64,000 nucleotides of DNA, taken from an uncultured Desulfobacter sp. Lineage in GTDB: Bacteria > Desulfobacterota > Desulfobacteria > Desulfobacterales > Desulfobacteraceae. Made by a program: the position numbers and the translations under genes. The DNA lies in NCBI GenBank assembly GCA_963665095.1, contig OY762069.1, positions 3,232,001 through 3,296,000 of the forward strand, written 5' to 3'. The notes under the pieces were generated by a model, which worked only from the letters and a program-made list of their open reading frames with translations, did not search any database and had not been told where the DNA came from. Below, piece by piece: positions 5,139 through 61,835 of this stretch. The stretch's first letter is position 1, and the number at the start of each line of letters is the position of its first letter.

Positions 5139-6638
5139 TCAGGTGCCGCAAAAGGTCCGGGTCACCCGTTCGTCGCTGGCAGGCGGTTTCGTATAGTCAA
5201 TAAACGCCGGCTGATCTGTAAACGGATTTTTAAGAAGCGTTGTCAGCAGGTGTACCTGGCTGAAATCATCTTTGGTTTCCGCATCCTCAATGGCCTTTTG
5301 AATTCGATGGTTTCTCGGAATGAAAAGGGGATTGAGCCGGTTCATTCTCTGTTTAACAGCTTCCGGTGAGTTTTCCGTGCGCAGCCGCCGTTGCCATTTG
5401 GCAAGCCAGGCTGCAATCGCATCCGGCTCCTTGAAAAGCGTTTCAAATTGCGGCGTCATGCCCGTGACTTCTGAGGTATGGTCTGCCAGACAGCGAAATG
5501 TCAGGGTAAAATCAGCCTTTTGCCGCTGCATGAGATCAAGCAGTTCCACAACAAGGGAAAAATCCTGATCATCAGGGTCTTTTATTCCAATTTTTTTCAG
5601 CATACCCTGTCTCCAGGCATGAACAAACTCCTGTTCAAACATGGAGAGGGTGGCATCAATAACCTCCTTTGCCTCGGCTTCTGTTTTTCCGAGAAGGACG
5701 CGCAAACAAATGCCAAGACAGTGCAGGTTCCACTTCATGATGGCGCCCTGATTGGCATATCGATATCTTCCCGCCATGTCGATGGAACTGAAGACCATGT
5801 TCAGGTCATAATAATCCATAAATGCACAGGGTCCGTAGTCGATTGTCTCCCCTGATACTGACGTGTTATCGGTGTTCATAACACCGTGAATGAATCCCAG
5901 TTGCATCCATTTTGCGACAAGGATGGCCTGTCTTGATGCCACCGCTTTAAAAAACCGCCGATACGAATCTTTTTCCCCCTGGATGTCCGGGTAATGGCGG
6001 GCAATCACGTAGTCGGCCAGCCGGCGTACAGCATCTTCATCCCCCCGGGCGGCAAAATATTCAAAACTGCCCACCCGGACAAAACTTGAGGCAACTCTGG
6101 TCAGAATACCACCCGGATGGATTCCATCCTCACGCAGAATCTTTTCACTGGTGGTGACGATTGCCAGGGCTCTGGTGGTGGGCACCCCCAGGGCGTGCAT
6201 GGCCTCACTGACGATGTATTCCCGGATCACAGGTCCCAGGGGAGACTTGCCATCCCCACCCCGTGAAAACCGTGTTCTGCCGGAACCTTTAAGCTGAATA
6301 TCGTAGTGTTTGCCGTCCGGGGTAACTTTTTCACCGAGCAAAACAGCACGGCCGTCCCCCAACTGCGGGACAAAGCTGCCGAACTGATGTCCGGCATAGG
6401 CCATGGCAATGGGTGTGGAATCAGCAAAAAGAAGATTGCCGGCCAGGCAGTCCGCCAGTTCCGGGGTGTCCGGAGAAAAATCAAAGCCCAGCTCCCTGCC
6501 CAGTTCCCGGTTGTATTTTTGCAGGGCCGCTTTTCCAACGACTTCCGGGGCACACCGCTCATAAAAATCTTGCTGAAGCGTGACATAACTGTTTTCAAAT
6601 CCGGCATTAAGCGTGGATCTCTCTGTGGTTCTTTTCAT
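5139..6638 (-). CDS. selO: Protein adenylyltransferase SelO/YdiU
   Basis: Motifs YAGHQFG, LGDGRA, QLKGSGRTRFSRGGDG, GFIHGVMNTDN, IDYGP and C-terminal TFCGT. Start set at 6638 behind an AAGGAG RBS (track start 6680). Confidence 0.93.
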   Translation of the reverse strand: MKRTTERSTLNAGFENSYVTLQQDFYERCAPEVVGKAALQKYNRELGRELGFDFSPDTPELADCLAGNLLFADSTPIAMAYAGHQFGSFVPQLGDGRAVLLGEKVTPDGKHYDIQLKGSGRTRFSRGGDGKSPLGPVIREYIVSEAMHALGVPTTRALAIVTTSEKILREDGIHPGGILTRVASSFVRVGSFEYFAARGDEDAVRRLADYVIARHYPDIQGEKDSYRRFFKAVASRQAILVAKWMQLGFIHGVMNTDNTSVSGETIDYGPCAFMDYYDLNMVFSSIDMAGRYRYANQGAIMKWNLHCLGICLRVLLGKTEAEAKEVIDATLSMFEQEFVHAWRQGMLKKIGIKDPDDQDFSLVVELLDLMQRQKADFTLTFRCLADHTSEVTGMTPQFETLFKEPDAIAAWLAKWQRRLRTENSPEAVKQRMNRLNPLFIPRNHRIQKAIEDAETKDDFSQVHLLTTLLKNPFTDQPAFIDYTKPPASDERVTRTFCGT

Positions 6639-49840: not shown

Positions 49841-50660
49841 TTAATTTCCCAGCAGGGTTAAAAAGATACCTGCCGCCACCACCGTGCCGATGACCCCTGC
49901 CACATTGGGACCCATGGCATACATGAGCAGATAGTTCTTTTATCCGCCTCCATGCCCACCTTATGGACCACCCGGGCGGCCATGGGCACGGCAGAGACCC
50001 CTGCGGCTCCCAGCAGGGGATTAATTTTGTTTTTGGAAAACAGATTCATGATCTTGGCCAGGATGATCCCTGTCATGGTACTCACCACAAAGGCGGCCAG
50101 GCCCAGGCAGAAAACAAAGATCACCTGGGGCCGCAGGAAATTGTCCGCATTCATGGTGGCCCCCACGGGCACCCCCAGAAAAATGGTGACAATGTTCATC
50201 AGCTCGTTCTGGGCAGCCTCATGAAGGCGGGCCACCACCCCGGATTCCCGGAACAGGTTGCCCAGCATGAACATGGCGATCAAAGGGGCGGATGCCGGGA
50301 CCAGCAGGACAATGACAAAGGTGGAGACAATGGGGAACAACATCTTTTCAAGCTTTCCCACCTTCCTGCCCTTGGCCATGCGGATCTTTCTTTCTTTGTC
50401 TGATGTTAAAAGCTTCATCACCGGCGGGATAATCTCCCAATGGATTCCGTACTGGTAGAATTTCCACAAAAGCCCCTCTTCCGGTGTCATGAGTCCTGCC
50501 AGGGGCAGGTTGACCAGAATGATGCCGAACCCTATGGGCAAAAGCAGCAACGGCTCATAGGATCTGGCAATGGATAGATAGATCAGGGTCAGCCCGATGA
50601 TCCACATCACCACAATCCCCGGGGTGAGATAAAAAAGGCCTGTGGTCTGGAATAGAAAGG
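49841..50660 (-). pseudogene. gcdB: Na+-translocating decarboxylase beta subunit, internally deleted and frameshifted
   Basis: YEPLLLLPIGFG, then EIIPP joined directly to VMKLLT (the GADGPT core is missing). Frameshift near 49940 before the [11 protein letters not shown] motif. Confidence 0.85.
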
Positions 50661-50679
50661 ATGTTTTCAGACTGGCCGC

Positions 50680-51039
50680 AAGCCAGGCCGGCCATGACCT
50701 TGTTGTCAAAGCCGATGATCACGGCCCATTTCCCGGCGATTTTGCCCAGGCCGTCCACCACATTGGAGGTGCCTTCCACATTATCCGCCGGGTTGAACAG
50801 GGTGTGAAGCGGCGTCCAGGTGCCGGGATCCACAATATAGTCAATGCGCTGCCACCCTTCATCTGGCCGCGCTGGTTAATTTTTTCTTCCGGAAGCCCGG
50901 CATTTTAAACTGCGTCCACAGCAGCCGCAATATCATTTTCAGCCGCGGCCACCTCATCATAATTAGCCTGGGTCCGTTTCAGGGTGCCCTGTTTCAGGGC
51001 TTTGCCAAAGGGCGTCATCTTCTCAAAATAGGATTTCAT
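50680..51039 (-). pseudogene. gcdA: Glutaconyl-CoA decarboxylase alpha (carboxyltransferase) N-terminal remnant
   Basis: MKSYFEKMTPFGK..., in-frame TAA at 50905-50907, frameshift near 50857, then WQRIDYIVDPGTWTPL...GFDNKVMAG, followed by a jump into gcdB. Confidence 0.8.
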
Positions 51040-53030: not shown

Positions 53031-54500
53031 TTAAGGCAGGCGGATTTTTCGTTTGTCGATTTCCCATAGTTCTGTAGGGCCATAGCCTGTTAGAGTTTGT
53101 AATTGTCTAAAATTAAAAGAGGACCAGAATTTACCCTTTTGGTCCTTAGACATAAACGCGGCAGCCATATAACGATATTCACCTTTCAAGACCCACCAGT
53201 CCTTATCGGTAATAGCTATTTTATCCGGATTTACACCCCGATCCTTTAGGAATCCGATCAGCTGACTTTCCAACGCTTTATTAACATATCCGGCAGCTGG
53301 GAATGGCTGGGGGCGGTTAGCCCATTCCTCTTTCTTCTGGTGCCAGATATTGTTTTGTTTTTCAAGATTTGAAAGCTGTTTAGAAAATTTTGCAGCCTGG
53401 TCCGGGATTGTATCAGACATCTTTTTGATCTGCTCTTTTTGGTAGTCTATTTTTTTCTGACTAAGAACAAAAAGATAGGTCCCGGATTCTGGTTTCCAGG
53501 TTTTATTTTTTTCGAATTGTTGGCTCCAGTCATCCAGGGTACGTTTTACAGGACCTGCCATGTTTCCGGATTCTGCATTACGATCCTTTTCATAGACCTC
53601 AATTTTAAATTTCAAGTCACTTGACGCTTGGGACAGCTCATGTGTCAGTGCCTTCCCTGACGTTTGTTTTTCAAAATCGGCCAAAAGCGTTTGGGCGTCT
53701 TTAAAGTATTGGTCCTGTTTTTCAAGGGCATCCTTATTTCGAATCCCTGGGAACTGCAATCGTTTGGCTCCTTTATAATCGATATAGGGTTTAATCCTTG
53801 GAAGCCACGTCTGGTTCATGGTTTCAGCATCAGCCTTGGCAGATGCTGCGGCAGCGGATATTTGATTGCTTTGATTCTCCACTTTCTGTTTAAAAGCAGC
53901 AAATTTGGCCTGCATCTCTTTGAGCTGTGCGAACCCTGCAGCCACATCGGGATTATTGGGGTCTGCCTTATTATTAGTAATGACTCTGTCCAGATAGGAT
54001 TGTGCACCCTGCAATCTTTGCTCAGCATTTGCACTATAGGATTTAACCAGGTTGAACTCATTGGTCTTTAACGCTTTTTCGCCTTGGTCCATTTCGCTTT
54101 GTGCAAACTTCATTTCACCATAGGCTGATTTTAAATTGGATTTAGCCCCGTGACTAAGTGGTTTAGGTCCTGAATTACTTGGTGCTGGTGCGGTTGAAGT
54201 CGTTGTACCAACGGAATTACTACCAAGCTTTTTATCAACCATTTTTTTTGTGCGATCGTATTTACCTTGAATTGATTTCAATGATTTATAACCAGGATCG
54301 GCAGCTTTTATCTCTTCTATAAGCTGTTTTACCTGGTTTAAAAGCTCATCTGCTTCAGTGGTTTTCCGGGAATAGTAATTGCGCTCCGCATCACGGATCA
54401 ATTTATTGGCTTTTTTTGACAGGTCCGCCACCGAATCAGAAGCCCAAACAAAATTAGTTGAACAAAAACACAATAAAAGAATCATGATTAGTTTTTTCAT
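53031..54500 (-). CDS. Hypothetical exported protein (helical, with a small C-terminal alpha/beta domain)
   Basis: Signal peptide MKKLIMILLLCFCSTNFVWA, Lys/Gln/Ala-rich helices, visibly more AT-rich than its neighbours. Confidence 0.8.
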   Translation of the reverse strand: MKKLIMILLLCFCSTNFVWASDSVADLSKKANKLIRDAERNYYSRKTTEADELLNQVKQLIEEIKAADPGYKSLKSIQGKYDRTKKMVDKKLGSNSVGTTTSTAPAPSNSGPKPLSHGAKSNLKSAYGEMKFAQSEMDQGEKALKTNEFNLVKSYSANAEQRLQGAQSYLDRVITNNKADPNNPDVAAGFAQLKEMQAKFAAFKQKVENQSNQISAAAASAKADAETMNQTWLPRIKPYIDYKGAKRLQFPGIRNKDALEKQDQYFKDAQTLLADFEKQTSGKALTHELSQASSDLKFKIEVYEKDRNAESGNMAGPVKRTLDDWSQQFEKNKTWKPESGTYLFVLSQKKIDYQKEQIKKMSDTIPDQAAKFSKQLSNLEKQNNIWHQKKEEWANRPQPFPAAGYVNKALESQLIGFLKDRGVNPDKIAITDKDWWVLKGEYRYMAAAFMSKDQKGKFWSSFNFRQLQTLTGYGPTELWEIDKRKIRLP

Positions 54501-54866
54501 TTTTTTTTCCTTTTCTCGGGTTGATTCCATAGGTTGACTGAACTTACGTGTATTGAACTCTATGCGTAGTGCCCTCCTTTTTATTAAGACAGATTACGTG
54601 TGCAATTTCAGAAGACAAATCGTCTCCCTGGCTAATTTAAAAAAAATCGCAAGATAATCTTACAGCACCCATTATTCTTTTCGTAAAAACAGAATAATGG
54701 ATGCCAATACTAAACCGACGTAAATGATGAAATCATATAGAATAGAAAATGACAGATGTCAACGCCATAACCATTTGACTTTTAAAGGCAGTTATATTGA
54801 GATATTTTTTATATAATAATTAGTGTTCAACCACTATTTATGTAGCGCTCAAGCCCTTTGGATCAT

Positions 54867-55826: not shown

Positions 55827-56144
55827 CTTTTAATCGGTTGAACTTCTTTTGTCTGCTCTGTACGATCCCTGAAATTAACCTGAAATCACATAATGTATCA
55901 GGCCCAATCGTTTTCGGATTAACACAATTAACCAATTGGAACAAGCACCTTTTTTTTGCTCAAGGTCCCAATTGACACTCTGCAGGCTAAAAATGTTATC
56001 CCCGGCCTTGATCATTTTTTCCTGATCCGGACTCTATTTTTTCAGACTCTTATATGATATGGTTTTTTGCTTTAACACAAATGTGCTGACAGCACAGCAT
56101 TGGTTAAAAAGATTTATTTGGAAGTTTGAGGAGATATTCCCCAT

Positions 56145-58022
56145 ATGGGACGTTTGAATGATTTTGAACTGACTATTAGAAAGGTCAGTGACACTCCTTT
56201 GACCTATGATGCCCTGATCCCTTCGGATTGCACTTTTTTCCAGGATGTCAGGCGCTATCAGAGTTCCGGGCCTCACCTGGAAATACGGATCATTCCGGTA
56301 AACGGACGGTTTGAACTGGACCCGGATATGGAGCCGGTATCCTTTAATAAACTGAGCGTGGCTGAACGTAAAGCCCTGGTGGACTATCTGACCGTACGGG
56401 TGGCCCGGGGAGATAATATCGGGTATGCCTGGGCGTTTTTCAAATCCCCGGATAAAAAACGCAGCATGGTGGCTTTTGGCGGCAATGTGGTACACAGCGA
56501 TACGGCCATGGGCAAGGAGCGGGTGGCACAATTACTCTCCCTTTTGCAGAAGCAAAAAGGGATTTCCAAAATGAAACGGCGGCTGGTGCCCTGGATTTCG
56601 GCCATTCTCATCATCGGGCTGATGGTGGGGGCCGGGTTCAAATACGGCCATCTGATCAAGCAGTTGCCCTTTATCAGCTCCATCGGCCAGCATTCCGGTC
56701 CTGAGATGGATTTCTACAAAATGGTCTTCCCCACCCTGTATGATTGGCTGGATGAGGGCGAACCTGAGCAGAAGGATGTGGCAAAAAAACTTTTAAAACC
56801 CGTCTATGTCGACTGCCTGCTTCACACCATGGAGGAAAGAAGTTACCGCCAGGAGGGTGAGGATCCCATGAACCTGGGCAACCGGCTCATTCTCTTTGTC
56901 TATTTCAACTATAACACTGAGGTGGCCGCTCTCATCAATGAACGCCGGGAAGTGCTGGACGGCACGGAATTCATGCGCCTTTGCAGGATCTACTCCACCC
57001 GGCAGTCCGGCTATGCCTCCAATATTTTCTACTTCAAGGTGGGCGATCTTAATATCAAACATACCGAGATCTCCAATTACATGAAGCAGAACATGATCAC
57101 CTACCGGGACTTCAAAAAGATCCGGGATGAAAATGCCTTTGCCGAACTGATGCAAAGCGATAACGTCAGTTATAAAATGAAAGGGTTTCTGGAAAACGTC
57201 TACACCTTTACCCCCCTTCGCATTGAAACAAAAGACCAGGGGCATGCCTGGCATCTGCTCACCAGAAGAAATGCGTCAGGCAAGATCGATTTTGCCGCCT
57301 TTTTCAATCAGGAAAGTGCAACGCTGGTTCCCAAACGCATCGGCAACCAGGTACTGGATACCAACGGACTTCCCGACGACATGACCTGGTACGGTATAGC
57401 TGACGGCCAGGCCCGTCAGCTCAAACTATCCAGCAATTCCCTGACCTATTTCAGCGCTGAGACCGGCCAGGTGCATCAGCTGGCCATCATCGAAGACAGA
57501 ATCGGCACATTCGGTTTGAAACCCCTTGATGCCAGCCAGATCAAAGCCAGCGTCCACAGGGAACTGCTCATGGGGGATATGAAGGGCAAGTACGGCATCC
57601 AGACCAATGATCCCATCACAAGTCTGGTGCTTTCCAATCTGATCACCAAATCCTCATTTGAACAGGAGGCCAATGTCTCCCTGAAACGGGATCCCATCCA
57701 GTTCAACACCACCCTGGTCCAGTTGTCCAAGGACGACAGCTTCTCGGTGCAGTCCGTCACCATCACGCCGGGAACCACCAACGTCATCCGGCTGTTTGAA
57801 CCCCTGGACAGCTTTATTGCCACTTTCAAGGACGGCACGACCGCCACCTTTGAAAAAGCAAGCGTCAATCTGTTCAACCCCTTTACTTTTATGGTATCCA
57901 GGGATAGCATAACCCTGTGTTTCCGAAATGATATCAATGACATGAAGATTTCGGCCGGTGATACCCAGCTTCAAATCATCAAGGCCAGGGACGGAAACTA
58001 TCAGATTATAAAAACCCTTTAA
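56145..58022 (+). CDS. Hypothetical single-pass membrane protein
   Basis: GAGGAG RBS, one TM segment (LVPWISAILIIGLMVGAGF) after about 145 aa, large C-terminal region. Confidence 0.8.
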   Translation: MGRLNDFELTIRKVSDTPLTYDALIPSDCTFFQDVRRYQSSGPHLEIRIIPVNGRFELDPDMEPVSFNKLSVAERKALVDYLTVRVARGDNIGYAWAFFKSPDKKRSMVAFGGNVVHSDTAMGKERVAQLLSLLQKQKGISKMKRRLVPWISAILIIGLMVGAGFKYGHLIKQLPFISSIGQHSGPEMDFYKMVFPTLYDWLDEGEPEQKDVAKKLLKPVYVDCLLHTMEERSYRQEGEDPMNLGNRLILFVYFNYNTEVAALINERREVLDGTEFMRLCRIYSTRQSGYASNIFYFKVGDLNIKHTEISNYMKQNMITYRDFKKIRDENAFAELMQSDNVSYKMKGFLENVYTFTPLRIETKDQGHAWHLLTRRNASGKIDFAAFFNQESATLVPKRIGNQVLDTNGLPDDMTWYGIADGQARQLKLSSNSLTYFSAETGQVHQLAIIEDRIGTFGLKPLDASQIKASVHRELLMGDMKGKYGIQTNDPITSLVLSNLITKSSFEQEANVSLKRDPIQFNTTLVQLSKDDSFSVQSVTITPGTTNVIRLFEPLDSFIATFKDGTTATFEKASVNLFNPFTFMVSRDSITLCFRNDINDMKISAGDTQLQIIKARDGNYQIIKTL

Positions 58023-58056
58023 TTGAAAAGTGTTTTAAGGAGTTTTAGTACCGCAT

Positions 58057-59562
58057 ATGTTTGACAACGCAGACCGCCTTTCCAGGGTCCAGAAAGAGAT
58101 CCGGGATGTCGTCCACCAGCTTGCCGATCTTCCGGCCCAGCAGGCAGACCGGGTGAACCGCATCATTGACCGGTGCCAGCAGTGCCTGAAGACCGCACCG
58201 GCGCCTGACACCCCTGTATATATTCACATCACCGGCACGGATAAATCGTTTAAGACCAGCTACCTGCTGGACCTGTTTGATAATGACACGCTGCGGGAGC
58301 TGTTTGCCGTCAAGCAGCGTAACACCTCGGAGAACACCGCCGTTCCCTGTCTTGTGGAGCCGGTCTCCTGGGCGGATGAGGTGGTGGTAAGCCAGGTATC
58401 CATCTCCACGGGCAATGTGATCCGGGACAAGCTGACCAAAGAGCAGTTCAACCGGCTCTATGATCTCTCCTCCGGAGCGGAACCCGATGACTATCTCATC
58501 CGGGTGGCTGTGCCCGAAGGCCAGACCCCCATGACCCGGCCCGCCATTGAGTACCCGGGCATCAAAGAGGGGGCGGACGCCATTGAGTTCCAGAAGGAGC
58601 GCCATGAAAAGTTCCAGACCAATATGCTGGACTGCCTGGAGCGCTACCCAGGCATTTTCGTGGCCTGTTTCCAGCATAAAATTGCCATTCCGCCGGGACA
58701 TCCTTTAGACGCCATTCTCAAAAAATACCGCGCCGTGCTTGAGACCACCCACCATTACCAGAAGCTGCCGCTGATTTTATCCTTACAGGGAGACAGTGCC
58801 GTGGCCAGCTACTGCGGCAACACCAATGTGGCGCAGGATCTGGAAAGTGATTTCAAAAGCTATAAGGCCTTTGAGACCGTGGTTCAGCTGGTAAACCCCT
58901 GCAATGGCGAATATCCGGTGACCTTTATCTCGCCGGGTCCCCATGTGGACACCTGGATCAGAAATCTGTCCCGGTACAAAAGTCTGCGGGAAATAAAAGA
59001 CCAGATCAAAGCAGACGGCGGGATTGCCTGGTCAAGACAGATGCTTGAGGAGGTCTGCACCACCTCCAATATCCGGGATGCCCTGGACAATATGTTCATC
59101 CGGCCCTGGCTGGCCCAGGCGGAAAAACTGCACGGCCAGGCTGTGGACCTTTTGTATGAACTTGAAAGCTATGACGAAGTGGCCGAAGTTAAGGAACGGA
59201 TGCGCAAAGCGGTTCTCAACGGCACCTACCAGGGGCTTCGCAAGTACTTTGCCTCTGAGCTTGAATACTTTGAAGACGGGGTGATCCGGGACCACAAGGA
59301 ATTCTGGACCGGCATATTCACCCGTTACCTGGATCAGTTCCTGGCAGACACCCAGAGAAGTGAAGGCTTGTCCCAGGTGCTGTGGGAACGGCTGCATAAG
59401 CGGCTGGATCCTGAAAGCAAAGGGTTCTTAAGTTCAAAGGAAAAGGACCTGCCCCATATTATCATGAACATGGCGGAATTTTACGTGCCCAATACACTGA
59501 TGCGCGGGGATTTCACCCTTCTGGAAAGAGATATTAAGGAGGATGCCTCCCATGCGGTTTAA
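58057..59562 (+). CDS. Divergent dynamin-like / P-loop GTPase-fold protein
   Basis: N-terminal helices, then IHITGTDKSFKTS (G1-like), ENTAVP (G2-like), IEYPG (G3-like), LILSLQGD (G4-like), then a helical tail. Confidence 0.6.
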   Translation: MFDNADRLSRVQKEIRDVVHQLADLPAQQADRVNRIIDRCQQCLKTAPAPDTPVYIHITGTDKSFKTSYLLDLFDNDTLRELFAVKQRNTSENTAVPCLVEPVSWADEVVVSQVSISTGNVIRDKLTKEQFNRLYDLSSGAEPDDYLIRVAVPEGQTPMTRPAIEYPGIKEGADAIEFQKERHEKFQTNMLDCLERYPGIFVACFQHKIAIPPGHPLDAILKKYRAVLETTHHYQKLPLILSLQGDSAVASYCGNTNVAQDLESDFKSYKAFETVVQLVNPCNGEYPVTFISPGPHVDTWIRNLSRYKSLREIKDQIKADGGIAWSRQMLEEVCTTSNIRDALDNMFIRPWLAQAEKLHGQAVDLLYELESYDEVAEVKERMRKAVLNGTYQGLRKYFASELEYFEDGVIRDHKEFWTGIFTRYLDQFLADTQRSEGLSQVLWERLHKRLDPESKGFLSSKEKDLPHIIMNMAEFYVPNTLMRGDFTLLERDIKEDASHAV

Positions 59563-61303
59563 CTTTTTCAAACGCAAAAAAAAGGAAGTGGACCCGTTCC
59601 AGCTGGAGCTGGAGGATGACGGCAAGCTTTATTATGAAACCATTGCCGGCCGCACGCCCCGGGATGTTAACAACCGGGAGGAGTATATCCTGTTTGTGGA
59701 TTTCGGGTCCTACCGGACAAGTGTTCTTTGCTGGCCCTGCAGTTTCGGCAGGGACAAGATCACCGACTCCTGGCAGTATGTGGTCCACGGGGATGCCGAT
59801 GCCCAGGGGGGTTTTCCTTCGGCCTTTATCAACCCGCCCTCAGGGGATGAACGCGACTTTGCCTTTGTCACCCATACCGGCGGGGAGAATGTCAGTGCAA
59901 GCCAGATCGTCAAGAGCGCCAAGTATGTGTTTGCCAGCAAGTTTGCCGCATACAAGGGAGATGTGCCCCAGTTCAAGCTTTACATCAAAAAGATCCTGGA
60001 GCACAGCTTCAAATATATTACGGAACCCAACAAGGAGAGGCCCTGGAACGGCCCGGCCATCCCGGTGATCACCGAGATCCGGGTGACGGTACCGGACCTG
60101 TTCATTGAAAATTTAAGAACCGGGTACAAGGAAAATATCTATTCGGTGTGCATGAACCTGGCCTCGGACCGGAAATGGAAGTGGCTCTTCCCCGAAGATC
60201 TGCGGCACTTGCGCAAAACCTTTGTCAATATTTCAGCCGATGAGTCAGGCGCCTGTGAACTCTATTTCCTCAACCTGCTCAAACAGGTGCCCTTCTGGGA
60301 TTTAGGCGGCCAGAAGGACCGGCTGCCCGATCTCAAAGAGGTGGACTTTATTTTTTCCCAGGCGGCCCAGCGCGACCCCAATGCTGAAAACCTGAACTAT
60401 GTGGTGTGCCATATTGATATCGGCGGCCTGACCACCGATGTCAGTGTGCTTCTGGCCAACACCTACCAGGACCCGGCCCTGGGCATCACCACGGCGCTCA
60501 AACGAAAAGAGTCCTTTTCCGAACGAAAAGCCGGTGAATATTTTGCCGAAACATTCAACCAGACGCGCCTGCCGGATGAAGGCGGCCCCTGGTGGGATTG
60601 TGACAGGTTCATCGACAGTGATTTTTCCAGGTTCCTGGAGCTTTTGTGCGGTAAGCAGGCCGCCCTTCTTGACAAATGGCGGCATGAAAAACAGCTCTCG
60701 GGCATCTATTTTCTGGTCTCAGGCAGACCCACCAAATCGGAAAAAGTCAGAAACGCCATCCGCAGGCATATCTTAAAAGAGTTCAACAAAGATGAACTGC
60801 TGCTGTTGCCCGAACACTGCCTGTTCATGGCCGAGTACCGCCATGTGGGCAAAAACCAGGAAGGGGAGCGCTATGCCAGAAAAATCGAGCATTTTGAAAA
60901 GCTCATCACCCTGCTGGGCAATGTCTACACCCTGTATGACGGGTATGAAATCTGCTTTGAGGACCACAAGTACTACATCTCCCTGGATACCGACACCCGG
61001 ACCACTACCCAGATGGAGGTGGTCCCGGGGCGCCTCTATAATATGGAAGAATTTGAAAACTACAAAAAATCAGCCATTCACAACAACGTCAATCACCTGG
61101 CGTTTACCCGGTTTCCTGCAGGAGAAAACGCCACACGCTTCTTAACCGTAAAAACCATTGCCCGGCAGACCGCCTACCCCATTATCCGGGTGGCCCAGAG
61201 TAATGACGGCCAGGCATGGATCATGCCGTCTTTAGTCATCACCAACCTGGAGCAGCATGACCAGGCCTTTGATCTGTCCTGGGGGGCGCTGATGATGGAA
61301 TAG
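59552..61303 (+). CDS. Hsp70/actin-fold ATPase, distantly SrfB-like
   Basis: FVDFGSYRTSV, VTVPD, ADESGAC, HIDIGGLTTDVSV, AGE, LVSGRPTK. Start overlaps the upstream stop, AGGAGG RBS. Confidence 0.75.
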   Translation: MRFNFFKRKKKEVDPFQLELEDDGKLYYETIAGRTPRDVNNREEYILFVDFGSYRTSVLCWPCSFGRDKITDSWQYVVHGDADAQGGFPSAFINPPSGDERDFAFVTHTGGENVSASQIVKSAKYVFASKFAAYKGDVPQFKLYIKKILEHSFKYITEPNKERPWNGPAIPVITEIRVTVPDLFIENLRTGYKENIYSVCMNLASDRKWKWLFPEDLRHLRKTFVNISADESGACELYFLNLLKQVPFWDLGGQKDRLPDLKEVDFIFSQAAQRDPNAENLNYVVCHIDIGGLTTDVSVLLANTYQDPALGITTALKRKESFSERKAGEYFAETFNQTRLPDEGGPWWDCDRFIDSDFSRFLELLCGKQAALLDKWRHEKQLSGIYFLVSGRPTKSEKVRNAIRRHILKEFNKDELLLLPEHCLFMAEYRHVGKNQEGERYARKIEHFEKLITLLGNVYTLYDGYEICFEDHKYYISLDTDTRTTTQMEVVPGRLYNMEEFENYKKSAIHNNVNHLAFTRFPAGENATRFLTVKTIARQTAYPIIRVAQSNDGQAWIMPSLVITNLEQHDQAFDLSWGALMME

Positions 61304-61352: not shown

Positions 61353-61835
61353 ATGGAATTACTCACCGTAACCATCGAAAACCCAGGCGAATACAACTTT
61401 ATCCTGGGCCATTCCCATTTCATCAAAACCCTGGAGGATGTACACGAAGCCGTTGTCAACACCGTGCCCAACGCAAAATTCGGTGTATCCTTCAGCGAGG
61501 CGTCCATCGAACGTCTGGTCCGGTATTCCGGCACAGATGAAGAGATGGTGGAACTTGCCAAAAAAAATGTCTATGCCCTGGCCGCCGGCCACACCTTTAT
61601 GGTGTTCATGAGAGACATGTTCCCCATCAACATCTTAAATACCATCCAGGCCGTGCCCGAGGTGGCCAGGATTCACTGCGCCACAGCAAACCCGACCCAG
61701 GTGATCCTGGCCGAGACGGACCAGGGACGCGCCATCCTGGGTGTGGTGGATGGTTTCTCCCCTGTAGGCATTGAAACCGATGAGAATATCAAAAGACGTA
61801 AAGAATTTCTGAGAATGATCGGGTACAAACAGTAA
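61353..61835 (+). CDS. Adenosine-specific kinase family protein (DUF355)
   Basis: NFILGHSHFIKTLED, FGVSFSEAS, AAGHTF, FPINILN, CATANP, LGVVDG. Confidence 0.9.
   Translation: MELLTVTIENPGEYNFILGHSHFIKTLEDVHEAVVNTVPNAKFGVSFSEASIERLVRYSGTDEEMVELAKKNVYALAAGHTFMVFMRDMFPINILNTIQAVPEVARIHCATANPTQVILAETDQGRAILGVVDGFSPVGIETDENIKRRKEFLRMIGYKQ

What the first reader, a model, noticed from the sequence alone, without database searches (positions are those of the whole stretch)
56145..61303. Uncharacterised three-gene operon: membrane anchor + dynamin-like P-loop protein + Hsp70/actin-fold ATPase
Seen: three co-directional long ORFs with a 34-bp gap and an 11-bp overlap, each with a good RBS. Gene 3 has the ASKHA motifs DFGSYRT, DE(S)GA, DIGGLTTD and SGRP but no DnaK substrate-binding domain. 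Gene 2 has G1-G4-like motifs in GTPase order between helical regions. Gene 1 has one TM helix and a large C-terminal region. Known: the SrfABC cluster combines a membrane protein, an Hsp70-like SrfB (GRP motif) and a GTPase-like SrfC. Dynamin-like and Hsp70-like pairs also occur in membrane-remodelling and anti-phage loci. Here the proteins appear shorter and very divergent, and the order is A-C-B. Inference: a membrane-associated NTPase machine for defence, conflict or envelope repair.
Basis: partly seen in the sequence, partly recalled or inferred. Interest (0 to 1): 0.85.

Follow-up and report, generated by a model that had tools for sequence, protein, structure and literature searches.

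The report
Compact SrfABC-like membrane NTPase trio
Many sulfate-reducing bacteria of one family inherit, or lose together, three uncharacterised genes for a membrane anchor, an altered dynamin-like protein and an Hsp70-type ATPase, which look like a stripped-down cousin of the poorly understood SrfABC system and probably work on the cell's own membrane rather than as a toxin.

Summary
The three ORFs, gaps and motifs are real. Gene 3 folds as an ASKHA/Hsp70-type ATPase. Among the families tested it is closest to SrfB (profile E 3e-5, versus 0.002-0.08 for Hsp70/MreB/EutJ; shared motif spacings), though it stays below the Pfam cut-off. Gene 2 is a short dynamin-like protein with conserved altered G1/G3/G4 motifs and no detectable SrfC similarity. 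Gene 1 has one TM helix behind an N-domain that weakly resembles kinase folds, as reported for SrfA; its outer part differs. In 151 Desulfobacteraceae genomes the genes are all-or-none (54 of 58 carriers hold all three), single-copy and under purifying selection. They largely follow GyrB and were lost repeatedly; one lineage shows a clean empty site. No plasmid or viral match was found, and few neighbours are defence genes. Verdict: a reduced, divergent SrfABC-like machine, probably sensing the envelope and remodelling the inner membrane; not a member of SrfABC, not a mobile defence island. Function and complex formation are untested. The scan noted the same trio earlier on another genome (e1-2461816); the SrfB/SrfA link and the inheritance pattern were worked out here.

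The parts
56053..56058 (+). Candidate sigma70-type -10 element (TATGAT) in the intergenic region before gene 1
   Evidence: TATGATA occurs upstream in 11 of 33 gene 1 loci, an extended -10-like pattern in 18 of 33; sigma54 0, CIRCE 0, sigma28 1 of 33. No shuffle control; not listed by the consensus scan. Inferred.
56145..58022 (+). Gene 1, 625 aa bitopic membrane protein (SrfA-like architecture)
   Evidence: no Pfam, NCBIfam or PADLOC family
56145..56549 (+). Gene 1 N-terminal domain (aa 1-135), probably cytoplasmic; weak likeness to a small, non-catalytic kinase fold; invariant YL..RGDNxG and G112
56583..56639 (+). Gene 1 single transmembrane helix (about aa 147-165)
   Evidence: one hydrophobic segment in 79 of 80 homologues; K/R 3.6 before versus 2.5 after (53 of 79 more before), a weak N-in signal
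56700..58019 (+). Gene 1 outer (probably periplasmic) region: helical domain, alpha/beta domain, very conserved block aa 471-545 and C-terminal beta sandwich
   Evidence: column conservation 0.83 in aa 471-545, where pLDDT is under 50 for 472-534
58057..59562 (+). Gene 2, 501 aa soluble short dynamin-like P-loop protein with altered motifs
   Evidence: top ESM Atlas clusters 0.92-0.94, mostly Dynamin_N
58234..58260 (+). Gene 2 G1: GTDKSFKTS (Phe/Tyr at the usual Gly before Lys)
   Evidence: F in 63, Y in 2 of 65; register matches GAIKSGKST of dynamin-like proteins in the same genomes
58324..58560 (+). Gene 2 G2 (invariant Thr94 in TSENTAVPC) to G3 (EYPG, Glu for the usual Asp); SLQG stands where G4 is expected
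59552..61303 (+). Gene 3, 583 aa ASKHA ATPase, remote SrfB relative lacking SrfB's N-terminal ~250 aa domain
   Evidence: fold; SrfB link
59699..60919 (+). Gene 3 nucleotide-binding motifs: D50-FGSYRT, S122-A-K124, D230-E231, D289-IGGLTTD, G391-RPT, K450..G456
60947..61282 (+). Gene 3 C-terminal beta domain (aa 466-577), possibly like the Hsp70 substrate-binding beta sandwich; no helical lid
   Evidence: secondary structure; (6asy_A model 41-575 to chain 24-526, rmsd 6.3; 7kru_B 44-559 to 2-483, rmsd 4.0); not folded on its own

Best explanation
A three-part inner-membrane machine, a reduced and divergent cousin of SrfABC, inherited from the ancestor of Desulfobacteraceae and lost as a unit many times. 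SHOWN (computationally): gene 3 has the Hsp70/actin fold with its nucleotide-binding residues kept; gene 2 has a dynamin-like motif layout with fixed changes; gene 1 has one TM helix; the three co-occur and co-evolve. INFERRED mechanism: gene 1 sits N-in. Its large conserved outer part reads or grips something in the envelope. Its small cytoplasmic kinase-like domain is a non-catalytic docking platform, as proposed for SrfA-N. It recruits the gene 3 ATPase, which supplies the ATP cycle and, chaperone-like, loads or takes apart assemblies of the gene 2 protein. Gene 2 has no membrane anchor of its own and probably weak or altered NTP hydrolysis, so it depends on the other two to reach and shape the membrane. 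The likely outcome is local remodelling or stabilisation of the inner membrane (repair, or upkeep of an envelope contact), useful in some habitats and dispensable in others.
Confidence: 0.45

Rival explanations
1. A domesticated anti-phage system: gene 1 senses adsorption or envelope breach, and genes 2-3 respond by sealing the membrane, delaying lysis or aborting infection.
For: All-or-none loss; DynA precedent (PMC8844932, abstract); GTPase + HSP70 conflict systems exist (PMC7159879, passages and sections 27-28); a restriction-modification pair sits between genes 2 and 3 in L015/L017 and a JetA-like gene lies downstream in L031.
Against: No PADLOC model for the three proteins. Only 11 of 113 neighbouring proteins hit PADLOC, mostly general enzymes such as RecD, UvrD, exonuclease, QueC and a patatin (no control set). 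Vertical, slow, single-copy, no variable effector. No plasmid or viral match. The outer domain is conserved, not hypervariable.
Confidence: 0.2
2. A structural or positioning scaffold: gene 3 polymerises like an actin (MreB/FtsA/PilM-type), gene 2 is a dead GTPase adaptor, and gene 1 links them to an envelope structure (pole, vesicle or appendage site).
For: Structural scores to MreB, FtsA, PilM and ParM tie with Hsp70. Gene 2 motifs deviate at G1, G3 and G4. The conserved low-pLDDT blocks of gene 1 may fold only in oligomers.
Against: Gene 3 carries a C-terminal beta domain and SrfB/Hsp70-type motif order. No strict tie to flagella (FlgI in 50 of 56 carriers, 62 of 95 non-carriers), type VI secretion (24 of 56 versus 25 of 95) or PilM (142 of 151).
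Confidence: 0.18
3. Genes 2 and 3 are a dedicated biogenesis crew (chaperone plus NTPase) for the gene 1 product, whose outer domain is the real enzyme, receptor or adhesin.
For: The outer part is two-thirds of gene 1 and holds its most conserved block; gene 3 has an Hsp70-like layout.
Against: No enzyme family or fold match for the outer part. Genes 2-3 stay adjacent when gene 1 moves away, and occur in a distant group with no recognisable gene 1.
Confidence: 0.1
4. An exported tripartite toxin or effector, as claimed for Xenorhabdus SrfABC.
For: Remote SrfB homology; SrfABC is reported as cytotoxic and insecticidal (PMC6950479, passages).
Against: Named carriers are free-living sulfate reducers. 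Slow vertical evolution, no immunity gene and no conserved export cassette among neighbours. The SrfA-C lipocalin motif is missing.
Confidence: 0.05

Closest known systems
SrfABC (SrfA NF040486, SrfB PF07520, SrfC PF10139)
   Same: Three genes: bitopic anchor with a small N-terminal kinase-like domain, ASKHA ATPase with DxGxxR-T / DE / DIGGxTTD / GRP / K-x5-G motifs and long inserts between them, and a P-loop GTPase-type protein. SrfB is the best profile match of gene 3.
   Different: Order is anchor-GTPase-ATPase. Gene 3 is 583 versus ~1,000 aa: no N-terminal ~250-aa domain and two much shorter intervals. Gene 2 is 501 versus ~880 aa with altered G1/G3/G4 and no SrfC similarity. The gene 1 outer part is not the SrfA-C lipocalin. 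No vWA/ABC/protease cassette is conserved. Restricted to one family plus a few distant metagenomic relatives.
Hsp70/DnaK, Hsp110
   Same: ASKHA nucleotide-binding fold; best Foldseek hits (E about 1e-9); C-terminal beta domain in a similar place; acidic, Lys and Thr residues at the usual positions (Hsp70 residue roles recalled).
   Different: 10-16% identity; no PF00012 hit; inserts shared with SrfB instead; no helical lid; no J-protein or GrpE neighbour seen.
Bacterial dynamin-like proteins (DynA, BDLP, short members of DLP pairs)
   Same: N-terminal helices, G1-G2-G3 order and spacing, helical C-terminal part; ESM feature match to 460-700 aa Dynamin_N clusters.
   Different: Phe/Tyr for Gly in G1, Glu for Asp in G3, no N/TKxD; no TM segment; single copy, not a DLP pair; tied to an ATPase and an anchor.
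DO-GTPase conflict systems with HSP70 (Kaur et al. 2020, PMC7159879)
   Same: GTPase near the membrane, sometimes with HSP70; a conserved glutamate in Walker B is named as a mark.
   Different: Those are mobile, often with two GTPases, GAP1 and variable effectors; none of this is seen here, and no such Pfam family hits gene 2.

Membership tests
SrfABC | SrfB family model PF07520 above its curated cut-off | tested here: not met
   No hit for the window protein; 5 of 40 homologues touched, best E 0.004
SrfABC | ASKHA ATPase with SrfB-type motifs and inserts (remote homology) | tested here: met
   hhalign E 2.9e-5 versus 0.002-0.08 for other ASKHA sets; intervals TxP-DE 48-62 (SrfB 48-67, DnaK 29), DE-DIGG 57-64 (48-59, 23), GRP-K..G 58-60 (48-49, 27)
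SrfABC | SrfB N-terminal ~250-aa domain and ~1,000-aa length | tested here: not met
   First motif at aa 27-55 versus 252-365 in SrfB
SrfABC | SrfC (PF10139): ~880 aa, intact GxSQxGKS, G1-G3 spacing ~270 | tested here: not met
   No PF10139 hit in 65 homologues; spacing 105; no motif-level profile match
SrfABC | SrfA-N: small kinase-like fold without catalytic motifs | tested here: inconclusive
SrfABC | Single TM helix after the N-domain | tested here: met
   79 of 80 homologues
SrfABC | SrfA-C lipocalin-like domain with FLNGxW and four Cys | tested here: not met
   Motif absent from the gene 1 sequence and consensus; mean 2.0 Cys after the TM; definition from the preprint
SrfABC | Gene order A-B-C | tested here: not met
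   Anchor-GTPase-ATPase in 33 of 46 genome loci; 6 have genes 2-3 without adjacent gene 1; 7 are cut by contig ends. A-B-C order in the SrfABC loci fetched
SrfABC | Three proteins form one complex | not testable with these tools
Hsp70 | ASKHA nucleotide-binding fold | tested here: met
Hsp70 | PF00012 match | tested here: not met
   0 of 40 homologues; gene 3 not among the 8 matches in its own genome
Hsp70 | Substrate-binding beta sandwich | tested here: inconclusive
   Alignments extend to model residues 556-579 in several Hsp70/Hsp110 rows, rmsd 3.9-8.0; domain not folded alone
Hsp70 | Helical lid | tested here: not met
   Model ends in beta strands; 133-151 aa after the last motif versus 272-279 in DnaK
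Dynamin-like proteins | G1-G2-G3 order and ~95-105 aa spacing between helical regions | tested here: met
Dynamin-like proteins | Canonical GxxxxGK[ST], DxxG and [NT]KxD | tested here: not met
   F/Y for G in 65 of 65, E for D in 65 of 65, S[LM][QH]G where G4 is expected; no PF00350 hit
Dynamin-like proteins | G domain-neck-trunk three-dimensional fold; GTP-driven assembly on membranes | not tested
DO-GTPase systems | GAP1 partner, paired GTPases, variable effectors, mobility | tested here: not met
   No conserved fourth gene, single copy, no Pfam hit; definition from PMC7159879 section 27
Known anti-phage systems (PADLOC 2.0) | Match to a system model | tested here: not met
   one weak JetA1 touch (E 0.039) on the first 45 residues of gene 2, nothing else

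The most novel reading that the evidence does not exclude
The trio is the minimal core of a distinct class of bacterial membrane machines: a transmembrane pseudokinase receptor that passes an envelope signal to an Hsp70-derived ATPase, which drives the assembly cycle of a dynamin that has given up its normal GTPase chemistry. SrfABC would be an elaborated branch of the same class, and its 'toxin' label a side effect of a machine that normally works on the producer's own inner membrane.
Probability: 0.3. Interest if true: 0.8.

Novelty: new variant of a known kind. Interest (0 to 1): 0.55.

Why it matters
SrfABC is widespread and labelled a virulence factor or toxin, yet its role in its own cell is not known. 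A half-size relative kept vertically, under strong constraint, in free-living sulfate reducers suggests that the core job is cell biology at the inner membrane. It offers a small (1,700 aa), harmless three-protein system in which to test this. It would also be a natural test case for whether an Hsp70-type ATPase can power a dynamin-like protein with altered GTPase motifs. The value is limited by the narrow range, the absence of any phenotype, and the weak evidence for two of the three SrfABC correspondences.

Tried and rejected
Family libraries: no significant Pfam, NCBIfam or PADLOC hit for the three window proteins; no significant Pfam hit for their alignments. PDB sequence searches gave nothing useful. 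Gene 1 model: no Foldseek match at E<=0.001 in PDB or BFVD; no usable ESM Atlas hit (recognition below threshold, so no inference). Gene 1/SrfA and gene 2/SrfC by profile or HMM rank: no signal. Accessory of flagella, type VI secretion or type IV pili: no strict tie; kin are not independent, so the higher FlgI and VipB shares in carriers were not tested. Adenosine-specific kinase gene (61353-61835) as a fourth member: rejected, adjacent in only 4 of 46 loci plus the window. Mobile copies: none on plasmids (genes 2, 3) or viral contigs (gene 3); gene 1 was not searched there. Outside the family: gene 3 not found in 388 other genomes of the order. Expression: no RNA holder listed. Complex prediction: tool not available, no verdict. 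Heat-shock, sigma54 or flagellar promoter motifs: not seen. Slips corrected: one search picked the antisense frame of gene 2 in L001 (fixed; that one row of 114 was dropped); one of three EutJ control sequences was a wrong frame; the motif pattern mis-hit and was redone, where one SrfB row (b89) still failed its first motif. Literature: eight searches listed no paper on this trio; most subscription papers are not in the library, and the preprint's supplements, which may list further SrfA-N relatives, could not be seen.
Full report
OBSERVATION. The three ORFs are there: gene 1 at 56145-58022 (625 aa), gene 2 at 58057-59562 (501 aa) and gene 3 at 59552-61303 (583 aa from the ATG with proper RBS spacing). 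The gap is 34 bp and the overlap 11 bp. G+C is 50.5-54.8% against 48.7% for the genome, with GC3 65-69%; nothing marks foreign DNA. All three are under purifying selection (dN/dS 0.10-0.16, 0.06-0.12 and 0.03-0.04 in 10 pairs among five close loci). None has a significant Pfam, NCBIfam or PADLOC match. The nearest named proteins are Desulfobacter hypothetical proteins.

To place gene 3 I compared its profile with SrfB (5, then 9 natural sequences) and with control ASKHA sets. SrfB scored E 3.7e-5 and 2.9e-5. DnaK gave 0.012, HscC 0.018, MreB 0.019, EutJ 0.023 (one of its three rows was a wrong frame), five single Hsp70-like proteins 0.002-0.28, and a mixed Hsp70 set of equal depth 0.008. Thirty block shuffles of the SrfB alignment gave at best 6.4e-4. 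Independently, Pfam SrfB touches 5 of 40 homologues (best E 0.004, below cut-off), and HSP70, MreB and FtsA touch none. Motif spacing agrees: TxP to DE 48-62 aa (SrfB 48-67, DnaK 29); DE to DIGG 57-64 (48-59, 23); DIGG to AG 38-44 (34-38, 30); GRP to K-x5-G 58-60 (48-49, 27). The GRP and K-x5-G motifs themselves are shared with SrfB, not DnaK. Gene 3 lacks SrfB's first ~250 residues, and two intervals are far shorter (127-141 versus 214-218; 64-66 versus 157-230). Against this, an SrfB-core HMM run on the genome's 16,466 frames ranks gene 3 only 16th (E 9.4). The relationship is remote and visible only family against family.

GENE 2. The ESM Atlas feature search returns bacterial Dynamin_N clusters at 0.92-0.94, with all ten best named hits in one clan. 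The sequence has two N-terminal helices, then GTDKSFKTS, TSENTAVPC, IEYPG and SLQG, then about 170 helical residues. The first motif lines up with GAIKSGKST of dynamin-like proteins from the same genomes but has Phe or Tyr for the Gly in 65 of 65 homologues. G3 has Glu for Asp in 65 of 65, and no [NT]KxD follows. K66, T67, S68 and T94 are invariant, so phosphate/Mg binding is probably kept while hydrolysis or base choice is altered (inference). G1-G3 spacing is 105 aa, as in the dynamin-like controls where G3 was found (95-98, 5 of 10) and unlike SrfC (267-280, 10 of 10); profile comparison with SrfC shows nothing at the motifs. No TM segment is predicted in 64 of 65. Gene 2 was not folded.

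DISTRIBUTION AND INHERITANCE. In 151 genomes of the family, gene 3 was found in 56, gene 2 in 57 (one a 25-residue remnant in G073) and gene 1 in 55. Of 58 genomes with any match, 54 hold all three; the exceptions are the remnant and three drafts 52-85% complete. Among 91 high-quality genomes each gene is in 35. PilM was found in 142 of the same 151, so incompleteness does not explain the blanks. Of 46 genome loci, 33 show gene 1-2-3 in order, 6 show genes 2-3 with another gene upstream and 7 are cut by contig ends. In 5 of those 6 genomes gene 1 is kept elsewhere. Flanking genes change from genus to genus. The three gene trees share 13-17 of their 14-17 strong splits, with no strong conflict (30 rows). 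Against GyrB in 24 genomes gene 3 has no strong conflict and the same mean distance (0.232 versus 0.233); gene 2 has two conflicts, both about one pair of genomes. Carriers lie across the family tree, and non-carriers form about ten or more separate branches, some weakly supported (56 rows). In G025 and G071 the flanks of the trio join across about 120 bp, a clean loss of the whole 5.2 kb. No gene 3 match was found in 388 other genomes of the order, on plasmids or in viral contigs. A profile search of 1.84 billion representatives found 12 hits, only 6 full-length. A distant group (31-53% identity) exists in metagenomes.

DEFENCE AND OTHER TRAITS. Of 113 non-redundant neighbours within three genes, 11 hit PADLOC at E<=1e-10, mostly general enzymes. 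The clear defence items are a restriction-modification pair inserted between genes 2 and 3 in one lineage and a JetA-like gene downstream in another (no control set). The trio does not track flagella (FlgI in 50 of 56 carriers, 62 of 95 non-carriers) or type VI secretion (24 of 56, 25 of 95) in a strict way. Upstream regions show sigma70-like -10 elements and no sigma54, CIRCE or sigma28 pattern.

MECHANISM. Shown: folds or motif layouts, one TM anchor, co-inheritance as a unit. Inferred: gene 1 spans the inner membrane, engages the envelope outside and offers a non-catalytic docking domain inside; gene 3 docks there and uses ATP to load or dismantle gene 2; gene 2, lacking an anchor and normal GTPase motifs, acts on the membrane only through them. 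The most likely result is local membrane stabilisation or remodelling (45%). DynA is the precedent for a bacterial dynamin in membrane surveillance that also delays phage lysis (PMC8844932, abstract). A chloroplast Hsp70 controlling VIPP1 assemblies is a loose parallel (PMC12798727, search listing only). Rivals are a settled anti-phage role (20%, partly the same mechanism), a cytoskeletal scaffold (18%), a biogenesis crew for gene 1 (10%) and an exported toxin (5%).

COMPARISON AND VERDICT. It works like SrfABC in plan, and one of three parts is detectably related, but it fails the membership tests on family models, SrfC, SrfA-C, domain content and order. It is not a DO-GTPase system (PMC7159879; passages, abstract, sections 27-28). 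Eight literature searches listed no paper on this trio. It is rated a new variant of a known kind, interest 0.55: real, undescribed in the sources searched and testable, with a bearing on what SrfABC does, but narrow in range and without functional evidence.

Noticed in passing
window 61353-61835 (+): Adenosine-specific kinase family gene (PF04008, E 4e-71) 49 bp downstream and co-directional; adjacent to the trio only in the window and four close loci, so probably co-transcribed by chance.
   Followed up: yes
window 53031-54530 (-): 499-aa protein with a signal-peptide-like start, long helical body and no family match in Pfam or NCBIfam.
   Followed up: no
window 49858-50833 (-): A Na+-translocating decarboxylase beta-subunit-like stretch appears broken over several frames (named from recall, not scanned); frameshifts or sequencing errors.
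   Followed up: no
L015 8021-9951; L017 8022-9950: A DpnII-like nuclease and N6/N4 methylase pair is inserted between genes 2 and 3 without disrupting them.
   Followed up: partly
L235 8657-8731 (G073): A 25-codon remnant of gene 2, 84-88% identical to family members, in an intergenic gap: trace of a recent deletion.
   Followed up: yes
P0032, P0034 (distant gene 3 homologues): An extra ~90-aa N-terminal domain with no Pfam match.
   Followed up: partly
window 56988-57047 (gene 1 aa ~282-301): The conserved SGYxSNIFYFK recalls the ESGxG...NNLFGIK motif of FlgJ-type glucosaminidases (recalled), but lacks a conserved Glu and gets no Pfam support.
   Followed up: partly
L080-L092 (SrfABC loci): True SrfABC loci come with glycine-zipper lipoprotein, trypsin-like protease and vWA genes, reminiscent of the envelope-sensing genes beside type VI kinases (recalled); this also points to envelope sensing for SrfABC.
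   Followed up: partly
L032: A genome labelled Cohaesibacter carries a trio nested inside a Desulfobacteraceae clade, with matching neighbours: more likely a label or binning issue than a transfer.
   Followed up: no
L010 ~6060-6374: A ~300-bp element upstream of gene 1 is repeated dozens of times in G037 and in sister genomes; probably a small mobile or REP-like repeat.
   Followed up: no
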